Assembly (NCBI GenBank): GCA_011322135.1
Contig: DRNP01000043.1
Span: 1 to 57,631 of the forward strand
DNA from: Candidatus Kaiserbacteria bacterium
Lineage (GTDB): Bacteria; Patescibacteriota; Minisyncoccia; Phycocordibacterales; Phycocordibacteraceae
Length of the DNA stretch: 57,631 nt
Direction: 5' to 3'
The notes beneath the pieces were generated by a model, which did not search any database, was not told where the DNA came from, and worked only from the letters and a program-made list of their open reading frames with translations. Shown piece after piece: positions 14,490 to 42,322 of this stretch. The position numbers and the translations under genes were made by a program. Every line of letters begins with the position of its first letter. Position 1 is the first letter of the stretch.

Positions 14490-14624
14490 CTACAGCAGTC
14501 CTTCTTTTATTAGAGCGTCTTGGATGCGCTCGAACATGAGGCGATGACCTTCGGCATGTAGACGATTCGCCCAACCGCCGTATTCACTATCAAAGAACCC
14601 TTGCGTGATACTGTCGCCGAAAAT
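14490..14624 (-). pseudogene. N-terminal remnant of an SGNH/GDSL hydrolase gene (about 44 codons, no ATG)
   Basis: Minus-strand frame reads (INIL)IFGDSITQGFFDSEYGGWANRLHAEGHRLMFERIQDALIKEGLL*. This includes GDS(I/L) block I of SGNH hydrolases but is truncated. It is wedged between the metG stop and the TA pair. Confidence 0.4.
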
Positions 14625-16069: not shown

Positions 16070-16077
16070 ATAAAAAA

Positions 16078-17142: not shown

Positions 17143-17303
17143 AATTCGAATAATACCACACGTAGTGCGCGGTTATACTATCGCACTGCAGGACAATACA
17201 AAGAAACAAAATTGTGCGCGAGTAAAACCGGCGAGCTTTATAAAGAAAGACTTTATACAAAGACACAAAATGCACAAAGACTTTTATGTGTGCTTTTTTA
17301 GAA

Positions 17304-17335
17304 AAAGTTTACACAATTAATCTCGTGTAAACTTT
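17304..17335 (-). terminator. Intrinsic terminator after glyQS
   Basis: Minus strand: aaagtttacac-gagattaatt-gtgtaaacttt followed by ttct. It begins 8 nt after the glyQS stop. Confidence 0.5.
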
Positions 17336-17342
17336 TCAATGA

Positions 17343-18746
17343 CTAAATAACGGCTCTTATCTTCGAGGCAAGTTCATTTGCATGGACACGCTCTTGTTCA
17401 CCGCTATCACGATGACGCAATGTAACCGTATTTTCCATCTCCGGTTTTTCTCCCAGAGTATCGAAATCAATTGTAATACAAAAAGGTGTGCCTATCTCAT
17501 CTTGTCTGCGATATCGTTTTCCGATATTTCCATTGTCATCCCACATAATTTGCGGAATATCTTTTTTCAACTCTTCGTAGATTTTTCGAGCCTTATCTAC
17601 AAGTGCCGGTTTATTTTTTAAAAGTGGTGATACCATCGCTTTTACCGGAGCAATCTTTGGAGAGAGTTTCAATACAACGCGCGTCTCATTATTTACAGTA
17701 TCCTCGTAATACGCATCTGTGAGAACCGCCAAAAAAAGTCGCCCGAGCCCCATCGATGTCTCAAGTATCCACGGAGTATATTTTTCTCCTGTTTTCGGAT
17801 CAACATATCGTAAATCAACACCTGAAAACTTTTGATGCTGTGTCAAATCATAGTCACTTCTGTCATGAATTCCTTCCAACTCATCAAAACCCCACGGATA
17901 TTTATATTCAATATCCCATGCATCTTTTGCATAAAATACGAGATTTTCATGTTGCTTAAATCTGAGATTTTCTTCGCGAATACCTAAAGCGAGATACCAC
18001 TCCATGCGCTCTTTTTTAAGAGATTCGTACGCTTCTTTATTTTCGTTCGGCTTTATAAAAAGCTGTGTGTCTGCCTGCTCAAACTCGCGAGTACGGAAAA
18101 GAAAGTTTCGTGGAGAAATCTCATTGCGAAATGCCTTACCTATTTGCGCAACTCCGAAAGGAATCTTCGGGTGCATCGAATCTACTATATTTTTATAATC
18201 GAGATATATACCCTGACTTGCTTCGCCCGGCAGATAAACCGGCTCCGCTTCGTCGGACGTAAAATCACCGAGGTTCGACTTTACCAAAAGATTAAATTTG
18301 CGTACTGCTGAAAAATTATGCTCACCGCATTTCTTACAAGCAATCTCCGCACGGTGAGCGTCAAAAAGAGTATTGATTTCTTCTTCGCTCATTTTTTCAT
18401 CTGCAGTCACACCTATCGCTTCAAGCACTTTGTCGACACGAATACGTGTATTGCATTTTTTGCACTCGGCAAGCGGGTCTGAAAAACCACTTGTGTGTCC
18501 ACTGGCTTCCCATGTGCGTGGATTTTTAAACATGCCGGAATCCAAACCGTACCAATTTTCACGCATCGAAACATTTGCATCCCACCATACTCGCTTTAAA
18601 TTATTTAAAAGCTCGACACCTCTTGGACCAAAATCATATACTCCCGCGAGCCCGCCGTATATTTCAGAACCGGGGAAAACAAAACCGCGTCGTTTGGCAA
18701 GCGAGACAATGGTTTCCATAACAGATTTTTGTGATGATTTTTCCAT
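17343..18746 (-). CDS. glyQS: Glycyl-tRNA synthetase (alpha2 class II type)
   Basis: IVSLAKRRGFVFPGSEIYGGLAGVYDFGPRGVELLNNLKRVWW; class II motifs (FRNEISPRNFLFRTREFEQ); anticodon-binding C-terminus. Confidence 0.9.
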   Translation of the reverse strand: MEKSSQKSVMETIVSLAKRRGFVFPGSEIYGGLAGVYDFGPRGVELLNNLKRVWWDANVSMRENWYGLDSGMFKNPRTWEASGHTSGFSDPLAECKKCNTRIRVDKVLEAIGVTADEKMSEEEINTLFDAHRAEIACKKCGEHNFSAVRKFNLLVKSNLGDFTSDEAEPVYLPGEASQGIYLDYKNIVDSMHPKIPFGVAQIGKAFRNEISPRNFLFRTREFEQADTQLFIKPNENKEAYESLKKERMEWYLALGIREENLRFKQHENLVFYAKDAWDIEYKYPWGFDELEGIHDRSDYDLTQHQKFSGVDLRYVDPKTGEKYTPWILETSMGLGRLFLAVLTDAYYEDTVNNETRVVLKLSPKIAPVKAMVSPLLKNKPALVDKARKIYEELKKDIPQIMWDDNGNIGKRYRRQDEIGTPFCITIDFDTLGEKPEMENTVTLRHRDSGEQERVHANELASKIRAVI

Positions 18747-18781
18747 ATAACAAATACTCTACGATAAAAACACGCACGAAG

Positions 18782-20677
18782 CTACTGCACCATCCCGGAA
18801 CCTGACACTGAAGAGTATTTTGGATCATGCGACATGTTTGTTGTAATTACGTTTGTGTTGGCAGTTATGTGTACTTGTGCAAAACGGTCAAAACCTGAAA
18901 ATACCGGTTTGTTCACCAAAACAGGCTCACTTCCATGCTGGCTTGTGCTTGGAATAAACGACACTTGGAAAGATCCCGTTCGACTTTCACCTGCTGAAAG
19001 ATTGCCGATATTCCACGTAACGGTATGAGCCCCGTTATCATACGATAATGAATTATCCCGTGGCGCTACGGCACCGACAAACTGCACGTACGTCGGCAAA
19101 TTAGCGGTTATTGTGGCTCCGGCAACATCATTTGTCGTATTGTGTACATTCCACATAATCGTATACGTCGTCATTTGGTTTGCTACGGGTGGCACCGGTC
19201 CGGAATTGACAACACCTCCTGTCGAATACAGTGCATACGAGTTAAGCGAAAGAGCTGTCGATATTTTTATCTTTTTACTTACAGTTGAGCTAATTGCTTG
19301 AGCAACATTATCTTGACCCAAACGCTGACCCGACACTGAAACAGTCATGGTGATGGTTTGGTTTGTGCCGATTGCTTCGGTGCTTGTGCTTTGCGGTGTA
19401 ATAGTAAAAGAGCCCACGCCTTGCGCACCCGGAGCAAGCGAAGCAAACGACGGGTCTGAATCTCTGCTAAATACAATGGTTTGCGTAGCTGATTGATATT
19501 GACCTCCGACAACTTGAATATTTTGATTAAATGGTGCTCCGGAAAGTTTCACTTCAATGAGTGCGTTATCAATCGGAACACTGAGTGTATTTTTCCAAGA
19601 AAGCGATATGTGCGCGGTTTCCCCGGCCGAAACAATTGTCGGTCCGGACGTCTTTCCATTAATACTGAGAGTGGTGGCAAGGAACGGTTGCATAATATTA
19701 ACCTCCGCAGTTTGTGTCATATATGAAAGAGCGATGGAAGTATTTGCTCCGTTTGCTGTTCCTACCGAAAAGCGAAATACTCGCAGTTCTCCATCTTGAC
19801 CCGTAAGCTTACCCGAAACTCTCACTGTAACGGTTTGTCCCGGACTGAGAGTCCCGAGTGAAAAAAGCGTTCCGGTTGGGGTTAACGATGTTTTTGTAGG
19901 AGTAAATCCTGTCGGGTATCCAATATTGAGACCGACATTTGATATAGGTTTTGTAGCATTCGACCGCACATTTGCCGTAATGGAAAAGACTTGACCGGAT
20001 ACCGTTTCTGTCGGTGCCTCCACCGATACGGAAAGAGGTGTTGATATTACAGAAAGCGCATACGAAGTATGTTTTACAAAAACAGCATTTGAACCGTGCG
20101 TCTTAAATTGTAATGTAGCAGGTATTTTTATCGTGTCCCCCTGCCCTCCGAAAAGAACAACACGGACGGTACGTTCAACTGAAGCTCCCGGTGCGATTAC
20201 ACCAAACGCCTCGTCATCATGCGTAACTGATTGTGTTACATCTGTAGCCCTACGTGTTCCTGTCGGGAAAACCAAAGAAAGCGTCGTGTCCTGTATCGCC
20301 GTTGGGTTATTGTTTGTAACCGAGATTGAAAGAGCTACGGTATCACCTCCGGCTATCGTCGTCGGTCCCTTGATGGCAACGGAAACATGGTTTACAGAAA
20401 CCGACCGACCTCCGGAAAGAAAAAGATAAGTTGCAATACCAAGAGCAATGACAAAAAAACCGATGGCGCTCCAGAAAAAACCGAGCGCAAATCGCACATG
20501 TTTGTGTGGAATTTTTTTTGTCTTTGCTTTGCCGTCGTTATCCCATTTATGAGGAGTACTCGGTGCCGGAGAACGCGAAAGATGCGCCTCCGGTCTTTCA
20601 ATCTCTTTTCGAGACGAATAAAGCCGACGCCTTTCTTCTTCCAAAGAACCTACTGTATCCTCTTTTTCCGATTTCAT
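18782..20677 (-). CDS. Membrane-anchored protein with repeated beta-sandwich (CARDB/DUF11-like) ectodomains
   Basis: Charged N-terminus, one TM (FALGFFWSAIGFFVIALGIATYLFL), then ~530 aa of repeated Thr/Ser/Val-rich modules. Confidence 0.6.
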   Translation of the reverse strand: MKSEKEDTVGSLEEERRRLYSSRKEIERPEAHLSRSPAPSTPHKWDNDGKAKTKKIPHKHVRFALGFFWSAIGFFVIALGIATYLFLSGGRSVSVNHVSVAIKGPTTIAGGDTVALSISVTNNNPTAIQDTTLSLVFPTGTRRATDVTQSVTHDDEAFGVIAPGASVERTVRVVLFGGQGDTIKIPATLQFKTHGSNAVFVKHTSYALSVISTPLSVSVEAPTETVSGQVFSITANVRSNATKPISNVGLNIGYPTGFTPTKTSLTPTGTLFSLGTLSPGQTVTVRVSGKLTGQDGELRVFRFSVGTANGANTSIALSYMTQTAEVNIMQPFLATTLSINGKTSGPTIVSAGETAHISLSWKNTLSVPIDNALIEVKLSGAPFNQNIQVVGGQYQSATQTIVFSRDSDPSFASLAPGAQGVGSFTITPQSTSTEAIGTNQTITMTVSVSGQRLGQDNVAQAISSTVSKKIKISTALSLNSYALYSTGGVVNSGPVPPVANQMTTYTIMWNVHNTTNDVAGATITANLPTYVQFVGAVAPRDNSLSYDNGAHTVTWNIGNLSAGESRTGSFQVSFIPSTSQHGSEPVLVNKPVFSGFDRFAQVHITANTNVITTNMSHDPKYSSVSGSGMVQ

Positions 20678-20753
20678 TAGTTTTCAGTATACCGCAGAAG
20701 CACAATGCGCAAAAAACTCACAGTACAATATTTCTATATTAAAATGTTCGACT

Positions 20754-21320
20754 TTATAATCCCGAAGCCGTTATGCCACGATTGATACGAGCAATATACG
20801 CTCCCCTATCTTTCTCAATGGTTTCTAAAACATGCACAACATTATCATTATTTACTACAGGTAGTTCTCCCGCATCCAATCCAAGAATTCGCAAGAATCG
20901 AAGCGACACCAAACATTCGGCAGAGTCATGCAATTTTTCCGGCATATCGACAAGTGTTTGAAAGAAATCATGCATTATGTGGAAAAAACGCGAATCGATT
21001 GATTCACAAGGAGCAAGTCGCAACAAGAAACCCGCTACACGCCCTGCACGTTCACGCTCCACTGCTCCCAATAAACTAAACCAGCTCGTATCAAGTACCG
21101 CTCCCGAAATCCTCCAACTTTCTTTTCCACGCAAAAGTATTACATCGGATTCTGTAAATGTTTGTAAAGCGCAAGCGAGTTTTGCTCCCTGTTTTCGCAC
21201 ACTTTGCGCACGTGCGTGTATCAAGCCAAGCTCATCTGTCAAAAGCACTATACCGGCGCTCGCTTCGGATATAGGATAACGTTTAAGTGCAATCGCTTTT
21301 GTAGCGTATCTATGTCGCAT
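20754..21320 (-). CDS. recO: Short RecO-like DNA repair protein
   Basis: N-terminal OB-like pattern AIALKRYPISEASAGIVLLTDELGLIHARAQSVRK. Overlaps the ileS stop by 11 nt. Shorter (188 aa) than typical RecO. Confidence 0.5.
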   Translation of the reverse strand: MRHRYATKAIALKRYPISEASAGIVLLTDELGLIHARAQSVRKQGAKLACALQTFTESDVILLRGKESWRISGAVLDTSWFSLLGAVERERAGRVAGFLLRLAPCESIDSRFFHIMHDFFQTLVDMPEKLHDSAECLVSLRFLRILGLDAGELPVVNNDNVVHVLETIEKDRGAYIARINRGITASGL

Positions 21321-24300
21321 CGTTTGTTATCGAAAAATGTATCTCTCCGAAAGAAAGTTTTGCCGTGTGTTGTGCATCGCTACCTGCATCAAACGTTATG
21401 AGCGATACTCCTGCAATCGTTTCCTTTTCAAGCAGTGCCCTGCCATTTTCTTCGATAGAAATACGTACCGTGTCAGTAGGTGAAAGTCCCGCTGATTTAC
21501 GCGCTTCCGCAAGTGCCCGAGTAAACTCGCGAACGTCACCTTCACGAACCAAGTCATCTGTAATTTTTGTATCAAGAGAAAGTTTTTCAGCTTTTGTGTT
21601 CACTTTTTTTACATTCACTTCATCTGCCAAGATTGTGGCAAATTCTCTTGAGATATTTCCCGGCACGGATAATGCAGAGAGTGGTTGACGTACTTTGATG
21701 CCTTCTTTTTGTCGCAACATAAGAGCTTCCGAAGCGAACGTTCTGACACGCTCCATCTCGGCAAGTGTTTCTTTGTCATGACCTGACACAAAAGAATTCA
21801 CCAAGCGCAGAGCAAATGAAAGTTTTTCTTCCGGCCAACTCGCCAGATGTACGCTTTCCGGATCGGCATCCGTACGTACGTTTTGGAAAACCTCTTCAGC
21901 CATAAAAGGTGCCAGTGGTGCTATCAAAAGTGATATGGTACGTAATGTGTCACGAAGCGTATTTAGTGCGGAAGAATCTCCTTCTCGCGCACGGTCACGA
22001 ATACGTCTCACATACCACTGCGACAAATCTTCTAAAAGTTTTGCGATTGTACGCGATGCTTCGAAAAGTTTGTATTCATCAAATGATTGCGTAACAGTGC
22101 GCACGGTTTCTTTGGTACGTGCAAGCATCCATCTGTCAATTATTTGCATGTTTGTGCTGTCTTTCTTTTGAACATTCTTAAACAGCGAATAAAACTTCGC
22201 ACTGTTTTCAAACCACGACAAAGTGCGCGCCACCTCGCGAATTGTTTTGCCATCAAAACTCTTCGACTCTCCGGGCTGGTTTACGCTATACATCCAGAAA
22301 CGCAAAGTATCCACTCCCCACTTTGCCATTGCTTCCCATGGATTTATTACATTCCCTTTTGACTTCGACATTTTGCGACCCTTATCATCAAGCAAATGCC
22401 CCAGGCAAATGACATTTTTATATGCGTGTCCTCGCCCCGTCAAAGTTCCAACCGCATGAAGTGTGTAAAACCACCCACGCGTTTGGTCAATAGCTTCTGA
22501 AATAAAATCTGCAGGATACCCGTGCCCTTCCACCCACTCTCTATTTTCAAAAGGATAATGTTCTGATGCAAAAGGCATTGCTCCCGAATCAAACCACACG
22601 TCCATGACCTCTTTTACACGATGAAGTTCCTCGCCGTTTTCACTCTCAAGCACAACATCATCTATATACGGACGATGTAAATCGAGCTCGTATTTTTCAT
22701 TATGCGGAAGCGGTACAAAATCAAGAGGAACAACCTCCGCGTTATTGACTTCCGGTATTTCCATAGCTTTCTTCTCAGACAACCCCTGCGCCACCGAGCG
22801 GAGCGCCCATATTGTCCGACCGTGCGATACAAGTAAAATACGCTTTCCGCTATAGCGTGACTCCAGCTCATACAGTAAGGCTCCCGTTCGATGCTTTACA
22901 TCATTTAATGTTTCGCCTCCTTCCGGAGCATTATCAAAACGGTCTTCAAATCTTTCAAAAAAACTCTCATATCCTTTTAATTTCTTTCCGTCAAATATAC
23001 CCGTATCTATCTCTCGCAAACGGTCTTCCAAAAGTACATGCGTTTCTGATACACCGAGTTCTTTTGCGAGTATTTTTGCAGTCTCTCTGGTGCGTGCAAA
23101 AGGTGATGTAAAAATGATGTCAACGCCTCCGTTTTCTTTTAATCCTTTTGCCGTTTCCAAAACTTGTGCTCTGCCCGATTCTGTTAAGTGGTCGGAGCTT
23201 GCGATGTTTGCAGACGTGCTTGTTATTTGTTCAATATTACTCTGCGATTCACCGTGACGAACAGCAACATAAACGTTGTGTCCTGTTTTTGTACGCTCCG
23301 CGAGATCGCTTAAGGAACCGATAACAACGCTCTCGGATCCGTCAGCATTTTCCCACACAGGCAAAGGAGTTCCCCAATACCTCTCACGACTTATCGCCCA
23401 ATCTTTCGCTCCTGCAAGCCACTCGCCGAAACGACCTTTTTTGATATGTTCCGGTTCCCAATGAATATGCTCATTCTCCGCAAGCATTGTCTCTCGTAAA
23501 TCATTCATGCGTATGTACCACGAATCACGTGCATAATAAATGAGCGGAGTCTTGCAACGCCAGCAAAAAGGATAACTGTGCTCATATTTATTTTTTGAAA
23601 AAAGAATTCCTTTCCCTGCCAAATCTTTTATTATGTCGACTGCGACTTCTTCATCTTTTACAAAACGCCCTTCCAGGAAACCTGTACCCGCAATAAACCG
23701 TCCGTCCGCACCAACGACATGTACTTTCGGCAAACCGACTTCCGTACCTAATACAAAATCGTCTTGTCCATACATTATCGCCGTATGTACGATTCCTGTT
23801 CCGTCTTCAGCGGTAACAAACTGTGCCGGATACACTTTGTGAGCTTTTTGAAATTTCGTCTCTTCTTCAGCGGAAGCAAGAGCGCGCGCAAAAGGATAAA
23901 GTGCTTCGTATGACATCCCTACGAGTTCACTTCCGAGCGTTTCTTCAGTGATGCGATATGTCTCGTCACCAAAAACCGCCTCCAATCTATCTTTTGCGAG
24001 AATAAATCTTTTTGTTTTTCCTTCTGTTTCTTTTTCAACCGTAACGTATTTCATTTTCGGATTTACGGCAAGCGCTACGTTGCCCGGAAGTGTCCACGGA
24101 GTTGTCGTCCACGCAAGAAAATACGTATTGTGTTTACCGGAGACCAAAAACTCAACCGTAACTGAAAGGTCTTTTACGTCTTCATACCCCTGCGCAAGCT
24201 CGTGCGAAGAAAGTGCTGTACCGCAACGAGCACACCACGGCACAACTTTATAGTCCTTATATAATCTTCCGCTTTTTGATATGTGCTTCAAAATAGACCA

Positions 24301-24909
24301 GAGCGATTCAATATATGTAGCATCGTATGTAAAATATGCTTTCCCCTGATCAACCCAATATCCCATGCGCTCTGTAAATTTTCGCCACTCATCTATATAT
24401 TTCCAAACGCTTTCCCTGCATTTTTTGTTAAAAGCTCCAATACCGTACGCCTCGATATCTTTCTTGCCGGAAAATTGCAAACTCTTCTCCACTTCCAATT
24501 CAACAGGAAGTCCGTGAGTGTCCCAACCTCCGCGACGACGCACGTGGTATCCTCGCATCGTCTTATATCTCGGTATCGCATCTTTGAAAGCGCGCGCCTC
24601 CAGATGATGAATGCCCGGACGCCCATTTGCAGTTGGCGGTCCCTCGTAAAAAACAAACTCTCCTTTAGGTGACGGCTTCTCCAATGACTTTTCAAAAATA
24701 TGATTTTCTTTCCAAAACTCCAACGTTGCTTTCTCTCGTGTGGCGGTTTTTGATTCTGCAAACGTATCAAAATCTACAGAGTTATCCGACTCGCCACTGT
24801 ACCCGTTTTTTTCAACGTGCTGTGAATTCGAAACCGAATTATTTGCCACTTCAGCGCTTTCAAACGCCGTGTCTGTTCTTTTTGTATGTGACTTTTTCAT
24901 ATAAATCAT
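21310..24909 (-). CDS. ileS: Isoleucyl-tRNA synthetase with an inserted histidine-phosphatase (PGAM-like) domain
   Basis: PPTANGRPGIHHLEAR (HIGH), editing CP1 (TTTPWTLPGN), WAISRERYWGTPLPVW, KMSKSKGN. Residues ~545-728 (22726-23277) carry RHGESQSN...SPFARTRETA...GGETLNDV...VSHGRTI. Confidence 0.9.
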   Translation of the reverse strand: MIYMKKSHTKRTDTAFESAEVANNSVSNSQHVEKNGYSGESDNSVDFDTFAESKTATREKATLEFWKENHIFEKSLEKPSPKGEFVFYEGPPTANGRPGIHHLEARAFKDAIPRYKTMRGYHVRRRGGWDTHGLPVELEVEKSLQFSGKKDIEAYGIGAFNKKCRESVWKYIDEWRKFTERMGYWVDQGKAYFTYDATYIESLWSILKHISKSGRLYKDYKVVPWCARCGTALSSHELAQGYEDVKDLSVTVEFLVSGKHNTYFLAWTTTPWTLPGNVALAVNPKMKYVTVEKETEGKTKRFILAKDRLEAVFGDETYRITEETLGSELVGMSYEALYPFARALASAEEETKFQKAHKVYPAQFVTAEDGTGIVHTAIMYGQDDFVLGTEVGLPKVHVVGADGRFIAGTGFLEGRFVKDEEVAVDIIKDLAGKGILFSKNKYEHSYPFCWRCKTPLIYYARDSWYIRMNDLRETMLAENEHIHWEPEHIKKGRFGEWLAGAKDWAISRERYWGTPLPVWENADGSESVVIGSLSDLAERTKTGHNVYVAVRHGESQSNIEQITSTSANIASSDHLTESGRAQVLETAKGLKENGGVDIIFTSPFARTRETAKILAKELGVSETHVLLEDRLREIDTGIFDGKKLKGYESFFERFEDRFDNAPEGGETLNDVKHRTGALLYELESRYSGKRILLVSHGRTIWALRSVAQGLSEKKAMEIPEVNNAEVVPLDFVPLPHNEKYELDLHRPYIDDVVLESENGEELHRVKEVMDVWFDSGAMPFASEHYPFENREWVEGHGYPADFISEAIDQTRGWFYTLHAVGTLTGRGHAYKNVICLGHLLDDKGRKMSKSKGNVINPWEAMAKWGVDTLRFWMYSVNQPGESKSFDGKTIREVARTLSWFENSAKFYSLFKNVQKKDSTNMQIIDRWMLARTKETVRTVTQSFDEYKLFEASRTIAKLLEDLSQWYVRRIRDRAREGDSSALNTLRDTLRTISLLIAPLAPFMAEEVFQNVRTDADPESVHLASWPEEKLSFALRLVNSFVSGHDKETLAEMERVRTFASEALMLRQKEGIKVRQPLSALSVPGNISREFATILADEVNVKKVNTKAEKLSLDTKITDDLVREGDVREFTRALAEARKSAGLSPTDTVRISIEENGRALLEKETIAGVSLITFDAGSDAQHTAKLSFGEIHFSITNDAT

Positions 24910-24968
24910 ATCCTAGCGGATTCAAAGGAAAAAAGGAAATGCCAAAAACAAAAACTCACGATTTCTCA

Positions 24969-26687
24969 CTACATTTTTTTTGGAGCTTCGATACCGAGAA
25001 TTGCAAGACCGTTTGTCATAGTTTTAATAAATGCACGCGCAAGCGACAATTTGTATGCTTCATATTCTCCTCCAATGATGCGTTCTTTCGCATAAAAAGA
25101 GTTCCACTCTCCCGCAAGCTCCGTGAGATATGTTGTAAGTAAGTTTGGAGCCAGAAGTCTCTCAGCATTTGCAACAATCTCAGGGAAACGCACTATCAAG
25201 CGAGATATGTCGTACGGCGTTTCCGGAGCGTCATCTGTTAAAATAGGAGCATCGATATTTTTTATGTCTTTTGATTTTTCCGCGTTACGCAAAACCGACT
25301 GCGCGCGCACAAGTGCATATTGTAAATAAGGACCGGAATCTCCGTCGAGAGAAAGCGACTTTTCCGTATCGAAAACAATCTCTGCTCCGGGAGACTGACG
25401 AAGAATCATGTATTTTATGGCACCTATCGCAACCTGTTCCGCCACAATGGGGTCTTTATTTCTTTCGAGTGCTTTTTCGATAACTTCTCGAATAAGACCG
25501 GAACCGGTAATCACGTTGCCTTTTCGCGAAGACATTTTTCCTGTTGTAAGTCGCAATAACCCGTGCGGAACATGAGTTGTCTTTTTCGCAATACCCGGCG
25601 CAATCTCCGAAAGCGCCGACAACACGACATTGAAATGCCCTATCTGCTCCGTACCGGTTATGATAATTACTTTTCCCGATGTGATGTGCTCTTCACGCAA
25701 AAAAGCCAATCCAATATCTTTTGTTTCGTATGTCGGTGTACCGCGACTCGTTATAAATACCAGAGTATGCAAGCCGTGTTTTTCTCCGTGATATACCACA
25801 GCCCCATCGCTCTTTTCAAAAATGCCTTTTTTTAATCCGTCATTAACGACTCTCATGCCGGGAGCAACCGTATCACTGTCAAAAAACTCGTAATCAAATT
25901 TTGTACCTATAAGAGCGAACACTCTCCTGTGCTCTTGCATTGAAAGCTCCCGCCCAGTGCGCCACATGGCAAGTAGTTTCCTTTTATCGTTTTGAAGCTC
26001 TGCTTCATTTTCTGCCATGGAAATGGTCTCATACAATGTAACGTTCAGTGAATCTATCTCTTTTTTTGCAGTTTCGCTTTTTTCATAAGCGTTCGATCCT
26101 TTTAGATACGCTTTGCCTATTTCAGTTGCACTTCCCGGCTCTGTAATACCTTCTCTAAGTAACCACCACAAAGCTTTCGCAACATGCGGACCTACGTCTC
26201 CACCAAAAGTATCCCTAACAACGACCGCACCTGAACTTTCTATCAAACGCGAAACGGCTTCACCAATAACGGCACCCATCAAATGCCCTATGTGCATCTC
26301 TTTAAAAGGATTCGGATTGCCGTATTCAATACTCACTCGCTCACCGGAGCGAGTGTTGTTTTTTCCCCATTCTTCATCTTCTGAAACAGCCCCTTCCAAT
26401 TCGCTTAAAATCGCACTCTGTGAAAGTTTAATATTTACAAATCCGGGACCTGCCACACTCACAGAGATTATATCTTTCCCGAGAGCACTCTTGAGATTGC
26501 TCGCGAGCTCATCTGCAATCTCGCGTGGATTTTTAGAAAGTTTTTTCGCAACAACCATTGCCGCATTCACCGCAAAATCTCCATGCTCTAAAGATGCGGG
26601 ATATTCCACTGCAAAATCAATATCTTCCGCTCCCATATCCGCAAGCGAGTTTTTAACGATTTTGTGAATTTTCCCTTTAATACTCAT
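24969..26687 (-). CDS. argS: Arginyl-tRNA synthetase
   Basis: SIEYGNPNPFKEMHIGHLMG (HIGH), MSSRKGN, and a C-terminal DALR-type anticodon-binding domain ending in M. Confidence 0.9.
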   Translation of the reverse strand: MSIKGKIHKIVKNSLADMGAEDIDFAVEYPASLEHGDFAVNAAMVVAKKLSKNPREIADELASNLKSALGKDIISVSVAGPGFVNIKLSQSAILSELEGAVSEDEEWGKNNTRSGERVSIEYGNPNPFKEMHIGHLMGAVIGEAVSRLIESSGAVVVRDTFGGDVGPHVAKALWWLLREGITEPGSATEIGKAYLKGSNAYEKSETAKKEIDSLNVTLYETISMAENEAELQNDKRKLLAMWRTGRELSMQEHRRVFALIGTKFDYEFFDSDTVAPGMRVVNDGLKKGIFEKSDGAVVYHGEKHGLHTLVFITSRGTPTYETKDIGLAFLREEHITSGKVIIITGTEQIGHFNVVLSALSEIAPGIAKKTTHVPHGLLRLTTGKMSSRKGNVITGSGLIREVIEKALERNKDPIVAEQVAIGAIKYMILRQSPGAEIVFDTEKSLSLDGDSGPYLQYALVRAQSVLRNAEKSKDIKNIDAPILTDDAPETPYDISRLIVRFPEIVANAERLLAPNLLTTYLTELAGEWNSFYAKERIIGGEYEAYKLSLARAFIKTMTNGLAILGIEAPKKM

Positions 26688-26713: not shown

Positions 26714-28105
26714 TTATACGCTCGTGAGCGCACCGCGTTTTGAAAGAAAATCATAATTGGATAGCGCTTTTTGCACATACATACGTAGACCTCTGTTGTG
26801 CACATGGTTAATCGATTTTTCAAATTCTCGTTTGTATAATTTCGGAGTCTGCGTAAAAACATGTCCAAAATAAGAATACGCTTCTGTCGGGAGATGGTGC
26901 GACATTGCGATAAATGCCAAAATTTCTTTATGCAAAATATCTGGCGGAGTTTTTGCAATCCTTTCCTCAGCAATCACCAGCTCTCTTTGTGAAAGTCTCC
27001 CTGAAAGTTGCGTCAAATGCTCGATTGCAACAAAATAAGCCACCTTGTGATGTTCTATTCCTGAAACTTTTTCAACCGACTTCGGGATTAAACCTTTTGG
27101 TAAAAGTGCCTCCACTTTTTCTGATAAATGACCAACTCCACCGGGAGCAAAGAGCGCCGGAGTTAACTGGTATGGTCCAAATGACGCTAATAAATCGTGC
27201 ACAGACGGAATCGCATCGATAAAATCCGTACCAGCATTACGCAAAAGAAAATCAAGTACGATGGCATTTGTCTCTCCGTCCGCTGAAGGCATAAGCTCTG
27301 TAAGAGAACACGCAATTAATTTTCTGGAGCTTATTCGAGATGCCATTTTTTCAATAAGAGCACGTCTTGCGCGCGGAAACTTTGCATCATTTCTAAGCTC
27401 ATACATTGCGTTCATAAATGCACGCTGTACGCTTTTTGTGGCATGAACTATATCCTTGGAATATTCATCGAGTGAAACTTTTTTAGCTTTACTCTGACTA
27501 TATGAACAATACAAATGTTCTGCCAAATCCATTAAATCTTTGTGTTCTTTCAAAAAAAGCTCGCGCACAATTTTCTCTTTTTCCGGCGAGTCAGTATGTT
27601 TATCGAAGCCAAACTTCATACGCCACAACCGCGCAAGGTTCGCTTTGAAATCTATTTGCAACTTTTCCGGTATAGTGCCCTTTTCATCAACACCTAAATA
27701 CATAGCATACAAGTTCGAAAGTTTTTTACCTTCAAGTGCTCCCACTGAAAAGGAGCGCGTTTTTTCTTTGTCGTGAAGAAAGGTGTACTTTTCTAAACCA
27801 TCGCCCTCCTCCGAAACATTTTGTTCACGTAATTTTTGCTTTAAATCTTTAATCTTTTTATCGGTAATACTTTCCTCTTTTTTCTTTGGTTTATCTTTTC
27901 GAGTGTGAGCGTTTGATGCAAGCTTGTCCGCAGTTTCTATGCCGGTTATCGCACTTATTGCAGTAACGAGAATACCGAGCTCTTTCAAAAACTCTCTGCG
28001 TGTCTTTTTCGTTCCGGTTTTTTCATGCTCCTTGCGCGCATGAGACACTGCGCTTTTGTCATTTTCGTATGCGCGTTGCGTGTTAAACGATTCCATCATA
28101 TACAA
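26714..28105 (-). CDS. Hypothetical protein with twin-arginine-like signal
   Basis: KKTRREFLKELGILVTAISAITG matches (S/T)RRxFLK plus an h-region. The rest is helical with no motif I can assign. Confidence 0.55.
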   Translation of the reverse strand: MYMMESFNTQRAYENDKSAVSHARKEHEKTGTKKTRREFLKELGILVTAISAITGIETADKLASNAHTRKDKPKKKEESITDKKIKDLKQKLREQNVSEEGDGLEKYTFLHDKEKTRSFSVGALEGKKLSNLYAMYLGVDEKGTIPEKLQIDFKANLARLWRMKFGFDKHTDSPEKEKIVRELFLKEHKDLMDLAEHLYCSYSQSKAKKVSLDEYSKDIVHATKSVQRAFMNAMYELRNDAKFPRARRALIEKMASRISSRKLIACSLTELMPSADGETNAIVLDFLLRNAGTDFIDAIPSVHDLLASFGPYQLTPALFAPGGVGHLSEKVEALLPKGLIPKSVEKVSGIEHHKVAYFVAIEHLTQLSGRLSQRELVIAEERIAKTPPDILHKEILAFIAMSHHLPTEAYSYFGHVFTQTPKLYKREFEKSINHVHNRGLRMYVQKALSNYDFLSKRGALTSV

Positions 28106-28117: not shown

Positions 28118-29371
28118 TTATACAAATGATTCGGGAATAGGATGCGCGGTTGCCATTTTTTGTACTGTCTTTCGAACATTCTCCACGCTGTCTTTTTTTG
28201 TAAGAATATCTATCATTAGATTAGCTACAAGTGTAACGTCATCTTCTGTAAAACCGCGTGTGGTGAGAGCGGGAGTTCCGAAACGTATTCCGGAAGGGTC
28301 CATCGGTTTTCTTGTATCATTTGGAATGATATTTTTATTAAGAGTAATTCCTGCTTTATCAAGCAATGCCTCTGCATCCGCTCCTGAAACACCAAATGAC
28401 TTCCACGCGTCAAGCAAAATAAGATGGTTTTCCGTACCGCCCGCAACCATTTTCGCACCGTGCTCTGCAAAAACATGTGCCATTGCTTTAGCGTTTTTTA
28501 TAACCTGCAAAGAATATGTTTTGAAACTCGGGCGCAGTGCTTCACCAAAAGCTACCGCTTTCGCGGCAATATTGTTCATGTGCGGACCTCCTTGAAAGCC
28601 CGGGAATACACTTTTGTCTATTTTTCTTGCGAGCTCTGCACTGTTTCGTGTCAATATCATTCCTCCGCGCGGTCCGCGCAAAGTTTTGTGTGTTGTCGTT
28701 GTCAATAAGTCAAAACCGTAATCAAAAGGGTTCTTTACAGCACCTCCTGCAATAAGCCCTGCAATATGTGCGATATCCATCACAGCAAGCGCTCCGGACT
28801 CTTTCGCAATCTCTACAAATTTTGCATAGTCAAGCTCTCTAGGATATGCGGAAAAACCTGCAAGTAGGATTTTTGGCTTCACTTCATTTGCAATGCGACG
28901 CATTTCATCATAATCGATATCTCCGGTCTCTACGTCTTTCATTTGATAATGCGCAAAATTAAAAATCTTTGTGAGATATGTTACCGGATGTCCGTGCGTC
29001 AAATGTCCGCCATGAGAAAGTTCCATTCCGAGCACAGTATCCCCCGGTTCAAGTAAAGCAAAATACATCGCGATATTTGCGTTAGCTCCACCAAGAGGTT
29101 GCACATTTGCATATTCGGCATTAAAAAGTTTTTTAGCACGTTCTATCGCAGTTGTTTCTACCATGTCTGTAAAATCCTGCCCGCCATAATATCGCTTCTC
29201 CGGATAGCCTTCCGCGTATTTGTTTGTAAGTGTTGACGCAAGAGCGTCACGCACCGCATGCGACACATAATTTTCAGATGGTATAAGCTCTAATCCGTTT
29301 TCTTCACGCCCATCTTCTCCGACAACAGCAGTATAAACATCCATGTCTTCTCGTTTAAGAAAATCGTACAT
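28118..29371 (-). CDS. glyA: Serine hydroxymethyltransferase
   Basis: LELIPSENYVS, TTTTHKTLRGPRGG (PLP lysine motif), SHGGHLTHG. Confidence 0.95.
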   Translation of the reverse strand: MYDFLKREDMDVYTAVVGEDGREENGLELIPSENYVSHAVRDALASTLTNKYAEGYPEKRYYGGQDFTDMVETTAIERAKKLFNAEYANVQPLGGANANIAMYFALLEPGDTVLGMELSHGGHLTHGHPVTYLTKIFNFAHYQMKDVETGDIDYDEMRRIANEVKPKILLAGFSAYPRELDYAKFVEIAKESGALAVMDIAHIAGLIAGGAVKNPFDYGFDLLTTTTHKTLRGPRGGMILTRNSAELARKIDKSVFPGFQGGPHMNNIAAKAVAFGEALRPSFKTYSLQVIKNAKAMAHVFAEHGAKMVAGGTENHLILLDAWKSFGVSGADAEALLDKAGITLNKNIIPNDTRKPMDPSGIRFGTPALTTRGFTEDDVTLVANLMIDILTKKDSVENVRKTVQKMATAHPIPESFV

Positions 29372-38845: not shown

Positions 38846-38940
38846 AATTTTATATAAATGATTATTTTAATATTATATCAGCAATTCTGTTGCAAAAATC
38901 CATTGTACACACGAAACACGCACTGCTAGTTTTATTTTTG

Positions 38941-39014
38941 GGCGACCTATGGGACTCGAACCCATAACCGCTGGTACCACAAACCAGAGCTCTACCAATT
39001 GAGCTAAGACCGCC
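38941..39014 (-). tRNA. tRNA-His (GTG) with encoded G-1
   Basis: Reverse complement: g-gcggtct-ta-gctcaattggtagagc...ctggt-ttGTGgt-accag...gggttcgagtccc...aggtcgc-c. Cloverleaf checked by hand; G-1 pairs with C73. Confidence 0.9.
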
Positions 39015-39062
39015 ATGCGTACATTGCACGCACACTGTTTATAACACAGAAAACCAAAAGTA

Positions 39063-39653: not shown

Positions 39654-39658
39654 GTTTT

Positions 39659-40684: not shown

Positions 40685-40783
40685 TGAAAATTGAAAAAAT
40701 TAAAGATACGCCAATATGTTTATAAAGTATAGCAAACAAAAAACGTGGCGAGCCGACGGCTCGCCACGTTTTTTGTTTTTTTG

Positions 40784-40865
40784 TGCCCAGGAGAGGACTC
40801 GAACCTCCAAGCCTTGCGGCATATGCACCTCAAGCATACGCGTATACCAATTCCGCCACCTGGGC
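40784..40865 (-). tRNA. tRNA-Leu (GAG), type II long variable arm
   Basis: Reverse complement: gcccagg...tatgc-ttGAGgt-gcata-tgccgcaaggct-tggaggttcgagtcctct-cctgggc-a. Confidence 0.9.
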
Positions 40866-40927
40866 AGGTGTATCGCTACTATACCGAGAACTCGGCTTTT
40901 TTACAAACAAAAGCAATATGAGCTCCC

Positions 40928-42314: not shown

Positions 42315-42322
42315 AATAATTT

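What the first reader, a model, noticed from the sequence alone, without database searches (positions are those of the whole stretch)
22726..23277. Complete histidine-phosphatase (PGAM-like) domain inserted in-frame inside isoleucyl-tRNA synthetase
IleRS motifs are intact (PGIHHLEAR, WAISRERYWGTPLPVW, KMSKSKGN). The segments ...VVIGSLSDLAERTKTGH and ...ELDLHRPYIDDV are only a few tens of residues apart in the IleRS sequences I know, where the gap often holds a Cys cluster. Here ~185 aa sit between them, carrying every catalytic element of branch-1 histidine phosphatases: VRHGESQSN (RHG), SPFARTRETA (Arg), PEGGETLNDV (Glu) and LLVSHGRTIWAL (His). There are no stop codons or frame breaks and no intein-type junction residues. 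The protein also has a ~55-aa N-terminal extension. A phosphatase module embedded in the catalytic body of an aaRS is unusual. It could act on a tRNA 3'-end phosphate, on nucleotide by-products, or on an unrelated metabolite.
Basis: partly seen in the sequence, partly recalled or inferred. Interest (0 to 1): 0.7.

Follow-up and report, generated by a model that had tools for sequence, protein, structure and literature searches.

The report
Phosphatase domain built into IleRS
An apparently active histidine-phosphatase enzyme sits in-frame inside the isoleucyl-tRNA synthetase of this candidate-phyla-radiation bacterium; in sister lineages the same phosphatase is a separate gene directly in front of ileS, so this looks like a widespread, apparently undescribed partnership of unknown biochemical purpose.

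Summary
ORF 21310-24909 (-) is a 1199-aa type-2 IleRS (TIGR00392, 850 bits). A complete Pfam His_Phos_1 domain (E 3e-33) occupies aa 549-731.

Alignment to solved IleRS2 structures shows about 200 residues (aa 538-739) where those enzymes have about 8. The insert lies at the tip of a zinc-knuckle hairpin.

It is neither an assembly artefact nor an intein. All 120 closest IleRS (57-73% identity, Kaiserbacteria/Paceibacteria MAGs) carry it. Arg-His-Arg-His is invariant and the Glu is 89% conserved.

There is wider context.
- Sister Patescibacteria encode the same phosphatase as a free ~190-aa gene directly upstream of an insertion-free ileS. This held in 49 of 72 assessable loci, with stop/start spacing mostly -8, -4 or +1 nt. 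It is embedded in 11 more.
- Gracilibacteria and Peregrinibacteria carry it in three other IleRS loops, in up to three copies. It often accompanies GNAT, P-loop kinase or other inserted domains.
- One IleRS has two HAD phosphatase domains instead.
- ArgRS-, TsaC- and ValRS-fused forms also occur.

The closest structures are small-metabolite phosphatases (PspA, GpgP, PhoE). The best reading is an active accessory phosphatase tied to IleRS that has been internalised. The substrate is unknown. I found no paper describing it.

The parts
21310..24909 (-). ileS: type-2 isoleucyl-tRNA synthetase, 1199 aa, host of the insertion
   Evidence: ORF. TIGR00392 scores 849.6 bits. Best PDB sequence and fold matches are IleRS2 8c8w/8c8v and 1ile.
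22693..23298 (-). The insertion (aa 538-739): histidine phosphatase domain plus short linkers. It replaces an ~8-aa hairpin tip of insertion-free IleRS2.
   Evidence: Alignment break at query 537/740 against 8c8w 475/484. AF2 pLDDT is 92-96 in the full model and 95.9 alone.
22717..23265 (-). Pfam His_Phos_1 (PF00300) match, aa 549-731
   Evidence: E 3.1e-33, 115.5 bits, profile positions 3-181 of 194. Foldseek TM 0.74-0.78 to PspA, Rv2419c, PhoE and HFP.
23254..23259 (-). Arg551-His552 of the RHG motif. His552 is the predicted phospho-acceptor nucleophile.
   Evidence: 100% conserved in 121 IleRS. Invariant in every context examined.
23092..23094 (-). Arg606, second phosphate-binding arginine (SPFARTRET)
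   Evidence: 100% conserved.
22912..22914 (-). Glu666, predicted general acid (GGE)
   Evidence: 89% conserved in the 121 close homologues. Glu in 76 of 79 domains across contexts.
22822..22824 (-). His696, second catalytic histidine (VSHG)
   Evidence: 100% conserved.
23329..23355 (-). WENADGSES (aa 519-527): position of the first CxxC pair of the zinc knuckle, with the cysteines lost here
   Evidence: Insertion-free relatives and many insert-bearing relatives have WxCxxC at this point.
22624..22650 (-). LESENGEEL (aa 754-762): position of the second CxxC pair of the zinc knuckle, with the cysteines lost here
   Evidence: Relatives have LKCPxCG at this point. This is also insertion site A' in other lineages.
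24604..24615 (-). G99-I-H-H102: non-canonical GXHH form of the class I HIGH signature
   Evidence: Sequence. Present in 118 of 120 close homologues. Meaning taken from PMC10485003.
22360..22374 (-). KMSKS loop (aa 846-850), intact
   Evidence: Invariant K846 M847 S848 K849 S850 in alignment A1.
24763..24909 (-). N-terminal ~45-50-aa extension, low complexity, predicted disordered
   Evidence: pLDDT below 50 for residues 1-49. Homologues cover 96% of the query and start near aa 47. No start codon at that position.
24969..26687 (-). argS (ArgRS, 572 aa) 59 nt upstream of ileS. In sister genomes the free phosphatase gene lies between argS and ileS.
   Evidence: Pfam Arg_tRNA_synt_N, tRNA-synt_1d and DALR_1. 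Synteny.
20754..21320 (-). recO-like gene overlapping the ileS stop. It is the downstream anchor of the conserved cluster.
   Evidence: RecO_N. The same order is seen in L010, L016, L018 and L020.

Best explanation
The segment is a genuine histidine phosphatase domain of the small PhoE/PspA/GpgP-like kind (branch 1), and it is predicted to be catalytically competent. It sits at the tip of the zinc-knuckle hairpin in the second half of the Rossmann fold of a type-2 IleRS.

It is the same protein that sister Patescibacteria encode as a separate ~190-aa gene. That gene lies between argS and ileS and is translationally coupled to ileS. In this lineage the partner has been internalised (argS-HP-ileS became argS-ileS::HP), and the zinc ligands were lost afterwards.

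Shown:
- The domain identity, the insertion point and its conservation.
- The invariant Arg-His-Arg-His, plus a Glu kept in 89% of close homologues and 76 of 79 domains across contexts.
- The tight HP-ileS gene linkage.
- The complementary free and embedded distribution.
- Recurrence at other IleRS loops, in several copies.

Inferred:
- The domain works as a tethered phosphomonoesterase. Arg551, Arg606 and Asn558 bind the phosphate, His552 takes the phosphoryl group, and Glu666 and His696 assist departure of the leaving group and hydrolysis. It is made 1:1 with IleRS.
- Its substrate is a small phosphorylated ligand connected with adenylate-forming chemistry, not the body of tRNA. Candidates are a by-product such as PPi or AMP, or a phosphorylated inhibitor or analogue.
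- The variable insertion geometry argues that co-production and proximity matter, not a fixed channel to the synthetic site.

The substrate itself is unknown.
For: Domain and insertion point.

Conservation: all 120 best IleRS homologues carry PF00300. R551, H552, R606 and H696 are 100% conserved, E666 89% and N558 93%. The core is invariant in free, fused, multi-copy and all-site versions.

Free-standing relatives: more than 100 free ~190-aa relatives occur in Parcubacteria, Nealsonbacteria and other Patescibacteria.

Linkage:
- All 5 looked-up free genes lie next to argS and/or ileS.
- Of 72 assessable metagenome loci, 49 have the gene directly upstream of ileS, 3 within 2.3 kb, 11 embedded and 9 unlinked.
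- Spacing from the HP stop to the ileS ATG is mostly -8, -4 or +1 nt.
- Embedded loci have argS abutting ileS with no free copy.

Recurrence:
- Sites A, A', B and C, with up to 3 copies, in Gracilibacteria, Peregrinibacteria and Peribacteria.
- Two tandem HAD domains with intact DxDG motifs occupy site B in an IleRS that lacks the HP domain.
- ArgRS-HP and TsaC-HP fusions exist.

Small-ligand leaning:
- Best sequence and fold neighbours are metabolite phosphatases: PspA, Rv2419c GpgP, PhoE and the riboflavin-pathway HFP.
- The region that forms the cap in those phosphatases is retained and confidently modelled as helices 107-121 of the domain model. Calling it a cap is my reading, not a tool result.
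- Net charge ranges from -21 to +23, with no conserved basic surface.
Against: - No enzymatic data exist and no substrate can be named.
- The argS-HP-ileS-recO cluster also holds unrelated housekeeping genes. Part of the linkage may therefore be inherited gene order rather than function.
- The 80 metagenome loci were chosen by similarity to one ileS-linked protein, which biases the synteny count.
- Nine loci have the phosphatase without ileS nearby.
- A freely diffusing small substrate gains little from tethering.
- CPR IleRS loops also tolerate domains that look like mobile-element cargo, such as an IS200-type transposase domain and DUF559. Permissive loops may therefore explain the location without any coupling.
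- I could not obtain model coordinates, so the distance and orientation of the phosphatase pocket relative to the IleRS sites are unknown.
- The ValRS case is a single low-coverage contig with an in-frame TAA.
- The ArgRS fusion may be a simple fusion of neighbouring genes.
Confidence: 0.55

Rival explanations
1. Passenger enzyme. The phosphatase has its own housekeeping job, for example a metabolite or nucleotide phosphatase, with no mechanistic link to isoleucylation. It ended up inside ileS because it was the neighbouring gene in a streamlined genome and class I aaRS loops tolerate insertions. Catalytic residues are conserved simply because the embedded copy is the only copy.
For: - The conserved cluster mixes unrelated genes (SmpB, IF3, L20/L35, RecO).
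- Nine loci are unlinked to ileS.
- CPR IleRS also host IS200-type transposase and DUF559 endonuclease-like domains.
- Closest relatives are generic COG0406-type metabolite phosphatases.
- Variable sites and copy numbers show no geometric constraint.
Against: - Adjacency would give terminal fusions, not insertions into four different internal loops.
- The same domain recurs in IleRS of distant CPR classes whose locus context differs (L102).
- Unrelated HAD phosphatase domains occupy the same loop in an IleRS without the HP domain.
- Two other fusion partners (ArgRS, TsaC) are adjacent or fused adenylate-forming tRNA-pathway enzymes, and a weaker ValRS case points the same way.
- -4 and -8 nt overlaps with ileS are kept across 41-100% identity.
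Confidence: 0.27
2. tRNA end-healing. [quoted passage not shown] Such phosphates could be left by nucleases or installed by toxins. Together with the P-loop kinase domains seen in some relatives, this would resemble phage T4 Pnkp repair.
For: - The fusion partners are tRNA-pathway enzymes.
- AAA_33-type kinase domains co-occur with HP in some IleRS (P0458, P0473, P0479).
- That T4 Pnkp combines an AAA_33-type kinase domain with a HAD-type phosphatase is my recollection, not tested here.
- The best NCBIfam hit is the bifunctional RNase H/acid phosphatase model (86 bits, below its cut-off), a precedent for this domain type on a nucleic-acid enzyme.
- The single-stranded CCA end could reach a closed pocket.
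Against: - No branch-1 histidine phosphatase is known to me to act on RNA ends.
- No conserved basic surface; the window's clade is acidic, -3 to -14.
- Four different insertion sites and a free-standing form argue against a fixed path for A76.
- TsaC does not handle the CCA end.
- Nearest structures are metabolite phosphatases.
- No class II aaRS partners were seen among the 150 representatives.
Confidence: 0.12
3. In-cis countermeasure on an antibiotic or toxin target. IleRS carries its own detoxifying or reversing enzymes. These would be a phosphatase, GNAT, kinase and hydrolase that neutralise inhibitors mimicking Ile-AMP, or that reverse inhibitory phosphorylation of the synthetase by HipA-like kinases.
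For: - Variable, modular domain content and copy number resemble an arms race.
- GNATs are documented immunity enzymes against aaRS-targeting Trojan-horse warheads (bioRxiv 10.64898/2025.12.02.691738).
- The window's IleRS has the GXHH motif linked to mupirocin hyper-resistance (PMC10485003).
- NCBIfam already curates an IleRS-with-GNAT variant, NF040702.
Against: - I know of no phosphorylated IleRS inhibitor.
- The HP-ileS pairing is ancient and broadly conserved, more like housekeeping than an arms race.
- HP presence is not tied to GXHH: the Gracilibacteria-type set shows canonical PHYGH in the eight examples printed, and free-HP neighbours are mostly HxGH.
- No PADLOC defence family matches.
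- Closest folds are metabolite phosphatases, not protein phosphatases.
Confidence: 0.1
4. Structural filler or pseudo-enzyme. The domain merely replaces the zinc knuckle as a scaffold or docking surface and has no catalysis.
For: The window's clade has lost all four zinc-ligand cysteines around the insert.
Against: - Arg-His-Arg-His is invariant and the Glu nearly so in every context, including free-standing genes and third copies.
- Many relatives keep the intact 4-Cys knuckle together with the insert.
- The rest of the domain evolves faster (about 35-45% identity) than the IleRS body (about 60%) while the catalytic residues stay fixed.
Confidence: 0.03
5. Artefact or selfish element: a chimeric assembly join, an intein, or a recent mobile insertion.
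For: An imperfect 14-nt inverted repeat brackets the insert (22713-22726 and 23281-23294). Other CPR IleRS contain transposase and endonuclease-like domains.
Against: - The same architecture appears in more than 100 independent assemblies from NCBI, JGI, ENA and Logan.
- There is no composition shift.
- No Hint/intein family matches, and the junctions lack the intein pattern: Asn545 at the start, and His736-Asn737 is followed by Glu, not Cys, Ser or Thr.
- The repeat is at chance level: 5 such pairs in 1.2 kb, and about 2 expected for 12/14 matches by my estimate.
Confidence: 0.01

Closest known systems
Type-2 (eukaryote-like) bacterial IleRS, e.g. Priestia megaterium IleRS2 (PDB 8c8u-8c9d) and Thermus thermophilus IleRS (1ile)
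   Same: The whole body matches: Rossmann fold, CP1 editing domain, KMSKS, anticodon-binding and type-2 C-terminal domains. Scores are 749 bits and E 1e-223 to 8c8w, and Foldseek E 1.5e-69. The GXHH signature variant is described for IleRS2 (PMC10485003).
   Different: About 200 extra residues forming a complete phosphatase domain sit where IleRS2 has an ~8-residue hairpin tip. The zinc-knuckle cysteines are lost in this clade. There is also an N-terminal disordered extension.
NCBIfam NF040702 'isoleucine--tRNA ligase, N-acetyltransferase domain-containing' (ileS_w_GNAT)
   Same: It is a curated example of a bacterial IleRS with an extra catalytic domain inserted in the body. Gracilibacteria and Peregrinibacteria IleRS with GNAT also carry the phosphatase domain.
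   Different: The window protein has no GNAT and scores 306 bits against a cut-off of 1999. No curated family names the phosphatase-bearing form.
Small branch-1 histidine phosphatases of the PhoE / PspA / GpgP (Rv2419c) / CobC / HFP group (COG0406-like)
   Same: Same fold (TM 0.74-0.78, rmsd 2.1-3.0 A, about 25% identity). Same catalytic set (RHG, Arg, Glu, His). Same size (~190 aa). The region that forms the cap in these enzymes is retained.
   Different: It is embedded in another enzyme. It scores below the curated cut-off of every named equivalog: CobC 66.6/162.9, PspA 54/350, archaeal dPGM 80/225, SixA 28.5/74.5. No substrate can therefore be transferred from them.
Bifunctional RNase H / acid phosphatase (NF005567, Rv2228c-type)
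   Same: It is a precedent for a CobC-like histidine phosphatase domain joined to a nucleic-acid-processing enzyme. It is also the best NCBIfam hit of the insert (86 bits).
   Different: It is a terminal fusion, not an internal insertion. The partner is RNase H. The score is far below the cut-off of 326.
CP1 editing domain of IleRS/ValRS/LeuRS
   Same: It is a second hydrolytic active site carried as an insertion in the Rossmann fold of a class Ia synthetase. This shows that such loops accept whole catalytic domains.
   Different: CP1 is universal in these enzymes and acts on mischarged tRNA or adenylate. The phosphatase is lineage-specific, belongs to an unrelated fold, has different chemistry, and also exists as a free gene.
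Phage T4 Pnkp-type end-healing enzymes (functional analogy only)
   Same: Some related IleRS combine a phosphatase (HP or HAD) with an AAA_33-type P-loop kinase domain on a tRNA-binding protein.
   Different: There is no homology between the HP domain and the Pnkp phosphatase, no ligase partner was seen, and no evidence of RNA-end activity exists. The window protein has no kinase domain.

Membership tests
Histidine phosphatase superfamily, branch 1 (Pfam PF00300) | Profile match above the curated threshold over most of the domain | tested here: met
   115.5 bits against a cut-off of 21.7, E 3.1e-33, profile positions 3-181 of 194.
Histidine phosphatase superfamily, branch 1 (Pfam PF00300) | Catalytic core: RHG motif (nucleophile His), second Arg, second His, acidic proton donor | tested here: met
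   R551-H552-G553, R606, H696 and E666 are present. The first four catalytic residues are 100% conserved and Glu is 89% conserved in 121 sequences. The core is invariant across contexts.
Histidine phosphatase superfamily, branch 1 (Pfam PF00300) | The alpha/beta fold of dPGM-like phosphatases | tested here: met
   AF2 pLDDT 95.9 and pTM 0.92. Foldseek probability 1.00 and TM 0.74-0.78 to 4ij5, 4qih, 1h2e and 9mmh.
Histidine phosphatase superfamily, branch 1 (Pfam PF00300) | Phosphatase or phosphotransfer activity through a phospho-histidine intermediate | not testable with these tools
   This needs an enzyme assay with H552A and H696A controls.
Cofactor-dependent phosphoglycerate mutase (dPGM) | Score above the equivalog cut-offs, with dPGM-specific substrate-binding segments | tested here: not met
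   NF038349 79.7/225, TIGR01258 32.5/81.7, PRK14115 32.5/305. dPGM structures align with lower target coverage, TMt 0.57-0.66.
Named small phosphatases: CobC, PspA, GpmB, SixA | Score above each family's curated cut-off | tested here: not met
   TIGR03162 66.6/162.9, NF045917 54.3/350, NF002901 62.7/261, TIGR00249 28.5/74.5.
Isoleucyl-tRNA synthetase (TIGR00392), type 2 | Equivalog score above the cut-off, with a type-2 C-terminal organisation | tested here: met
   849.6 bits against 621.4. Anticodon_1 and DUF5915 are present. Best matches are IleRS2/MupA/MupB-like and 8c8w.
Isoleucyl-tRNA synthetase (TIGR00392), type 2 | Class I signature motifs (HIGH-type and KMSKS) and CP1 editing motifs | tested here: met
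   GIHH (the GXHH variant documented for IleRS2 in PMC10485003), KMSKS at 846-850, and the editing-domain motifs WTTTPWTLPGN and GTGIVHTA..YGQDD are all present.
Isoleucyl-tRNA synthetase (TIGR00392), type 2 | Aminoacylation activity retained despite the insert | not testable with these tools
   This is inferred only, from conservation of the body (60% mean column identity) and from ileS being the only copy seen at this locus.
IleRS with GNAT domain (NF040702) | GNAT domain present and score above the cut-off | tested here: not met
   306 bits against 1999. There is no GNAT Pfam hit in the window protein.
Intein | Hint-domain similarity and junction residues (Cys/Ser at the N-terminus, His-Asn followed by Cys/Ser/Thr) | tested here: not met
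   There is no Hint/intein Pfam hit. The insert starts at Asn545, and His736-Asn737 is followed by Glu738.

The most novel reading that the evidence does not exclude
Candidate-phyla-radiation IleRS would be an 'armoured' synthetase: an essential antibiotic and toxin target that carries its own repair or detoxification enzymes in cis. Those enzymes are a histidine or HAD phosphatase, GNAT and P-loop kinase.

On this reading the phosphatase reverses a phosphate-based block of isoleucylation. The block could be a phosphorylated or pyrophosphorylated tRNA-Ile CCA end, a phosphorylated synthetase, or a phosphorylated Ile-AMP mimic.

This would be a previously unrecognised layer of translation quality control or defence. 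It would be ancient enough to exist as a two-gene module (HP-ileS) across Patescibacteria.
Probability: 0.2. Interest if true: 0.88.

Novelty: new variant of a known kind. Interest (0 to 1): 0.72.

Why it matters
Aminoacyl-tRNA synthetases are among the best-studied enzymes, and I know of no phosphatase partner for any of them.

Here, a phosphatase predicted to be active is tied to IleRS across several major candidate-phyla-radiation lineages, which are a large share of bacterial diversity. The tie is either a translationally coupled upstream gene or an insertion into one of at least four loops, in up to three copies. In one protein, unrelated HAD phosphatase domains take the same place.

That pattern suggests an unrecognised phosphate-dependent step or hazard in isoleucylation, or in adenylate-forming tRNA enzymes generally, in these minimal episymbiotic cells.

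It is directly testable with recombinant protein. It also provides:
- A natural series of free, inserted and multi-copy forms for studying how whole enzymes get inserted into other enzymes.
- A reason to improve annotation. NCBI names many of these proteins only 'class I tRNA ligase family protein', and JGI named one free phosphatase 'isoleucyl-tRNA synthetase'.

Tried and rejected
- **Assembly chimera.** Rejected: the same architecture occurs in more than 100 independent assemblies and there is no composition break.
- **Intein.** Rejected: no Hint match and the wrong junction residues.
- **Recent mobile insertion.** Flanking repeats are at chance level. The insert is old: HP domains are only about 35-45% identical among hosts whose IleRS bodies are about 60% identical.
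- **dPGM, CobC, PspA or SixA identity.** All are below their curated cut-offs.
- **Link to the GXHH mupirocin-resistance motif.** Rejected: HP-bearing Gracilibacteria-type IleRS show canonical PHYGH in the examples printed, and most free-HP neighbours have HxGH.
- **Anti-phage defence family.** No PADLOC hits.
- **Conserved basic RNA-binding surface.** Not found; net charge ranges from -21 to +23.
- **Metagenome scan with the diverse profile A2.** A narrower profile, A3, worked.
- **HP-domain NJ tree.** It is star-like and cannot order events. Only the site-B, site-C, site-A' and ValRS copies each cluster.
- **IleRS N-half NJ tree.** It interleaves free-adjacent and embedded forms, so the number of insertion events is unresolved.
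- **Model coordinates.** Not retrievable, so no distance or orientation analysis of the two active sites was possible.
- **Literature.** Eight full-text searches and five papers read gave no description of a phosphatase in or next to IleRS.
- **ValRS with four HP domains.** Kept only as a weak lead: a single ~2x-coverage contig with an in-frame TAA.


Full report
**1. The observation**

The window carries one uninterrupted ORF on the minus strand, 21310-24909, of 1199 aa. Pfam finds the class I synthetase catalytic domain (tRNA-synt_1, 383 bits), Anticodon_1 and DUF5915. Between the two halves of the catalytic domain it finds His_Phos_1 at aa 549-731 (E 3.1e-33, 115.5 bits against a gathering score of 21.7). 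NCBIfam identifies the host as IleRS (TIGR00392, 849.6 bits against 621.4), and its nearest specialised models are the type-2 MupA/MupB enzymes.

The phmmer alignment to the solved Priestia megaterium IleRS2 (8c8w) breaks cleanly. Query 537 pairs with residue 475 and query 740 with residue 484. So about 200 residues (aa 538-739, window 22693-23298) stand where IleRS2 has about eight.

GC content is flat across the junctions.

**2. Not an artefact, an intein or a decayed relic**

All 120 best homologues in a 5.8-billion-protein collection carry PF00300 at the same place. They are 57-73% identical and come from independent NCBI, JGI, ENA and Logan assemblies. The named ones are Kaiserbacteria, Paceibacterota and Parcubacteria.

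In a 121-sequence alignment, Arg551, His552, Arg606 and His696 are 100% conserved. Asn558 is 93% conserved and Glu666 89%. The rest of the domain is much more variable than the IleRS body, at about 35-45% identity against about 60%. This is the pattern expected under selection for catalysis.

There is no Hint/intein match, and the junction residues are wrong for an intein: Asn545 at the start, and His736-Asn737 followed by Glu. Short repeats around the insert are at chance level.

AlphaFold2 models the domain at pLDDT 92-96 within the full protein and 95.9 on its own. The full model matches IleRS2 structures best.

**3. Where it sits**

Insertion-free relatives have a four-cysteine knuckle at this point: W-x-C-x-x-C ... 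C-I-G-S-x-E-E-L ... D-L-H-x-P-Y-I-D-E-x-x-L-K-C-P-x-C-G. The phosphatase is inserted at the tip of that hairpin, between GSxxEL and DLHRPYIDD.

Many insert-bearing IleRS keep all four cysteines around the domain, for example P0127, P0176, P0193, P0209, P0480 and L092. The window's clade has lost both pairs (WENADGSES and LESENGEEL). Loss of the zinc ligands therefore followed the insertion, and the domain is not simply a substitute for the knuckle.

I believe this region corresponds to the CP3 insertion named in class Ia structures. PMC11685878 lists CP core, CP1, CP2 and CP3 for IleRS. The assignment of this loop to CP3 is from my memory and was not tested.

**4. The same phosphatase is a separate gene next to ileS in sister lineages**

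A phmmer search of the insert against 1.84 billion cluster representatives gave 1085 hits at E<=1e-10. Most of the best 150 are IleRS or IleRS fragments. Genuine free-standing ~190-aa proteins also appear, with their own start and stop. A profile of these finds more than 100 further free-standing members in Parcubacteria, Nealsonbacteria and other Patescibacteria.

All five that I looked up lie in the window's own gene neighbourhood (L20-L35-IF3, SmpB, argS, ..., recO, a DUF7619-like protein, a class II aaRS).
- In four, the phosphatase gene sits between argS and an insertion-free ileS of 956-982 aa.
- In the fifth, it directly follows argS and ileS is adjacent on the opposite strand.

A metagenome scan returned 80 loci at 41-100% identity. 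Of the 72 with enough flanking DNA:
- 49 have the phosphatase gene directly upstream of ileS on the same strand, and five of these have two tandem copies;
- 3 have it within 2.3 kb;
- 11 have it embedded at the window's site;
- 9 show no ileS nearby.

The distance from the phosphatase stop to the ileS ATG is mostly -8, -4 or +1 nt, the signature of translational coupling. Where the domain is embedded, argS abuts ileS and no free copy is present, as in the window, where the spacer is 59 nt.

The two states are therefore complementary at one locus: argS-HP-ileS against argS-ileS::HP.

One caveat applies. The loci were selected by similarity to an ileS-linked protein, and the cluster also contains unrelated genes. 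The linkage therefore overstates functional evidence to some degree.

**5. The phenomenon is broader than the window's clade**

Local domain mapping found IleRS with the phosphatase at other loops.
- Site A' lies just after the second Cys pair (about query 757).
- Site B lies between HYPFEN and GYPADFISEAIDQTRGWF (about 790).
- Site C lies at the start of the helical anticodon-binding domain (about 915).
- Combinations occur: A+A', A+B, A+C and B+C.

A search with a B+C protein recovers Gracilibacteria, Peregrinibacteria and Peribacteria IleRS, nearly all with PF00300. My approximate map of 116 of them gives site C about 56 times, A' about 25, B about 21 and A about 18, with up to three copies per protein.

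Many of these also carry other in-frame domains:
- GNAT, which is the architecture NCBI curates as NF040702;
- AAA_33/Zeta-toxin-like P-loop kinase;
- DUF559;
- an alpha/beta hydrolase;
- in one case, an IS200-type transposase domain.

One IleRS, P0457, lacks the histidine phosphatase. It has two tandem HAD domains with intact DxDG motifs at site B. This looks like a non-homologous phosphatase substitution, but it is a single case.

The same phosphatase subfamily is also fused to the C-terminus of ArgRS. In that locus (L010) the fusion gene is followed by recO, so the fusion may derive from gene adjacency. It is fused to TsaC/Sua5, the threonylcarbamoyl-AMP synthase. It is inserted three to four times into a ValRS, though that case rests on one ~2x-coverage contig with an in-frame TAA.

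The catalytic Arg-His-Arg-His is invariant in every one of these contexts, and the Glu is kept in all but a few.

**6. What kind of phosphatase**

The insert scores below the curated cut-off of every named equivalog: dPGM, CobC, PspA, GpmB and SixA. The best PDB sequence matches are PspA and PhoE.

Foldseek places the domain model with Rv2419c glucosyl-3-phosphoglycerate phosphatase, PspA, PhoE and the riboflavin-pathway histidine-family phosphatase (TM 0.74-0.78, about 25% identity). The larger dPGMs align less completely. It is thus a small phosphatase of the COG0406 kind and not a mutase.

The segment that forms the cap in those enzymes is retained and confidently modelled. Calling it a cap is my reading of the model, not a tool result. 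Net charge ranges from -21 to +23 across members, and the window's clade is acidic. There is no conserved RNA-binding surface.

**7. How it most likely works**

Shown:
- A complete phosphatase domain with an intact catalytic set.
- Produced 1:1 with IleRS.
- Derived from, or interchangeable with, a translationally coupled upstream gene.
- Maintained for a long time across CPR classes.

Inferred:
- It is a tethered phosphomonoesterase using the standard histidine-phosphatase mechanism. His552 is phosphorylated, Arg551, Arg606 and Asn558 bind the phosphate, and Glu666 and His696 assist.
- Insertion site and copy number vary and a free form works too. The benefit is therefore co-production and proximity, not a rigid channel.
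- The nearest relatives, the retained cap region and the lack of a basic surface favour a small ligand.
- The partners (IleRS, ValRS, ArgRS, TsaC) share ATP -> AMP + PPi adenylate chemistry and amino-acid substrates. Candidates therefore include PPi, AMP or a phosphorylated analogue or inhibitor.

I give this coupled, small-ligand reading 0.55 overall. The domain identity and evolutionary origin parts alone are about 0.9, and any single named substrate is at most 0.15.

The main rival (0.27) is that the enzyme is a passenger with an unrelated housekeeping role, fused because of adjacency and permissive loops. tRNA end-healing (0.12) and an in-cis countermeasure against inhibitors or kinases (0.10) remain open and are the most interesting alternatives. 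Filler and artefact readings are essentially excluded.

**8. Comparison with what is known, and novelty**

The host is a member of type-2 IleRS and the insert is a member of branch-1 histidine phosphatases. Both memberships were tested and met. The insert is not a member of any named phosphatase family that was tested.

Accessory domains on aaRS are well known: CP1 editing, GST, WHEP and NCBI's IleRS-with-GNAT. I recall no phosphatase among them. AARS Online's text contains no occurrence of 'phosphatase'.

Eight full-text searches and the IleRS phylogeny and structure papers I read mention no phosphatase in or beside IleRS. Automated pipelines have seen the architecture, for example the JGI product name 'isoleucyl-tRNA synthetase/phosphohistidine phosphatase SixA/...'. 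It is therefore visible in databases but, as far as I could find, not described or explained.

I rate it a new variant of a known kind, with interest 0.72.

Noticed in passing
window 24604-24615 (-), aa 99-102 of IleRS: The class I HIGH signature is the swapped form G-I-H-H. PMC10485003 links GXHH in IleRS2 to mupirocin hyper-resistance. It is present in 118 of 120 close homologues, but not in the HP-bearing Gracilibacteria-type IleRS examined (PHYGH). HP-adjacent IleRS are mixed, so it is not tied to the phosphatase.
   Followed up: partly
window 24763-24909 (-), aa 1-49 of IleRS: A low-complexity N-terminal extension is absent from homologues and predicted to be disordered (pLDDT 24-37). There is no in-frame start codon at the homologous start. 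Possible starts are the ATG at 24909, the ATG at 24900, or the GTG at codon 21.
   Followed up: partly
window 14624-26687 (-): Four aminoacyl-tRNA synthetase genes lie within 12 kb: a MetRS-like gene at 14624-16069, a class II HGTP-type gene at 17343-18746, IleRS and ArgRS. RecO and a 631-aa DUF11/NEW3-like surface protein (18782-20677) are interspersed. The same order recurs in many Patescibacteria loci.
   Followed up: partly
window 26714-28105 (-): A 463-aa ORF directly upstream of argS has no Pfam match at E<=1e-4. It is followed upstream by serine hydroxymethyltransferase (28118-29371).
   Followed up: no
window 1111-4539 (-) and 51104-55231 (-): There are two very large ORFs. One is 1142 aa with only a peptidoglycan-binding domain hit. 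The other is 1375 aa with a central LCAT-type lipase/acyltransferase domain. Most of each protein is unannotated.
   Followed up: no
window 38940-47307: A loose cluster of six tRNA genes: His-GTG, Leu-GAG, Val-TAC, Leu-CAG, Arg-TCT and Ser-TGA.
   Followed up: no
P0479, P0473, P0458, P0408, P0409 (relatives of L102 6001-10260): Gracilibacteria and Peregrinibacteria IleRS reach 1400-1860 aa by carrying several in-frame domains in the same loops. These are GNAT, AAA_33/Zeta-toxin-like kinase, DUF559 endonuclease-like, an alpha/beta hydrolase and even an IS200-type transposase (Y1_Tnp) domain inside the CP1 region. IleRS appears to be a general landing pad for whole domains in these lineages.
   Followed up: partly
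P0457 aa 566-960: This IleRS lacks the histidine phosphatase. It has two tandem HAD-superfamily domains at site B, with motif I intact (FDFDGVL and FDNDGVL). It looks like a non-homologous phosphatase replacement.
   Followed up: partly
L010 6001-8070; L015 977-2140; L011 366-3851: The same phosphatase subfamily is fused to the ArgRS C-terminus (followed by recO, with no ileS between). It is fused to TsaC/Sua5. It is inserted three to four times in a ValRS, whose last copy is cut by an in-frame TAA on a ~2x-coverage contig.
   Followed up: partly
L061, L062, L063, L064, L076 (about 1.1 kb upstream of ileS): Five loci have two tandem phosphatase copies directly upstream of ileS. I did not determine whether they are one di-domain protein or two genes.
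   Followed up: no
L018 7652-8819: An RHH antitoxin, a ParE/YafQ/YoeB-like toxin and an HD_3 phosphohydrolase gene are wedged between the free phosphatase gene and ileS in one lineage.
   Followed up: no
window 22713-22726 and 23281-23294: An imperfect 14-nt inverted repeat (12/14) brackets the insert almost exactly. Five such pairs occur in this 1.2-kb stretch, and about two are expected by chance for this quality by my estimate, so I treat it as coincidence.
   Followed up: yes
P0273; P0031, P0044 and others: Annotation is inconsistent. JGI names a free 195-aa phosphatase 'isoleucyl-tRNA synthetase'. NCBI names many insert-bearing IleRS only 'class I tRNA ligase family protein' or 'hypothetical protein'.
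   Followed up: no
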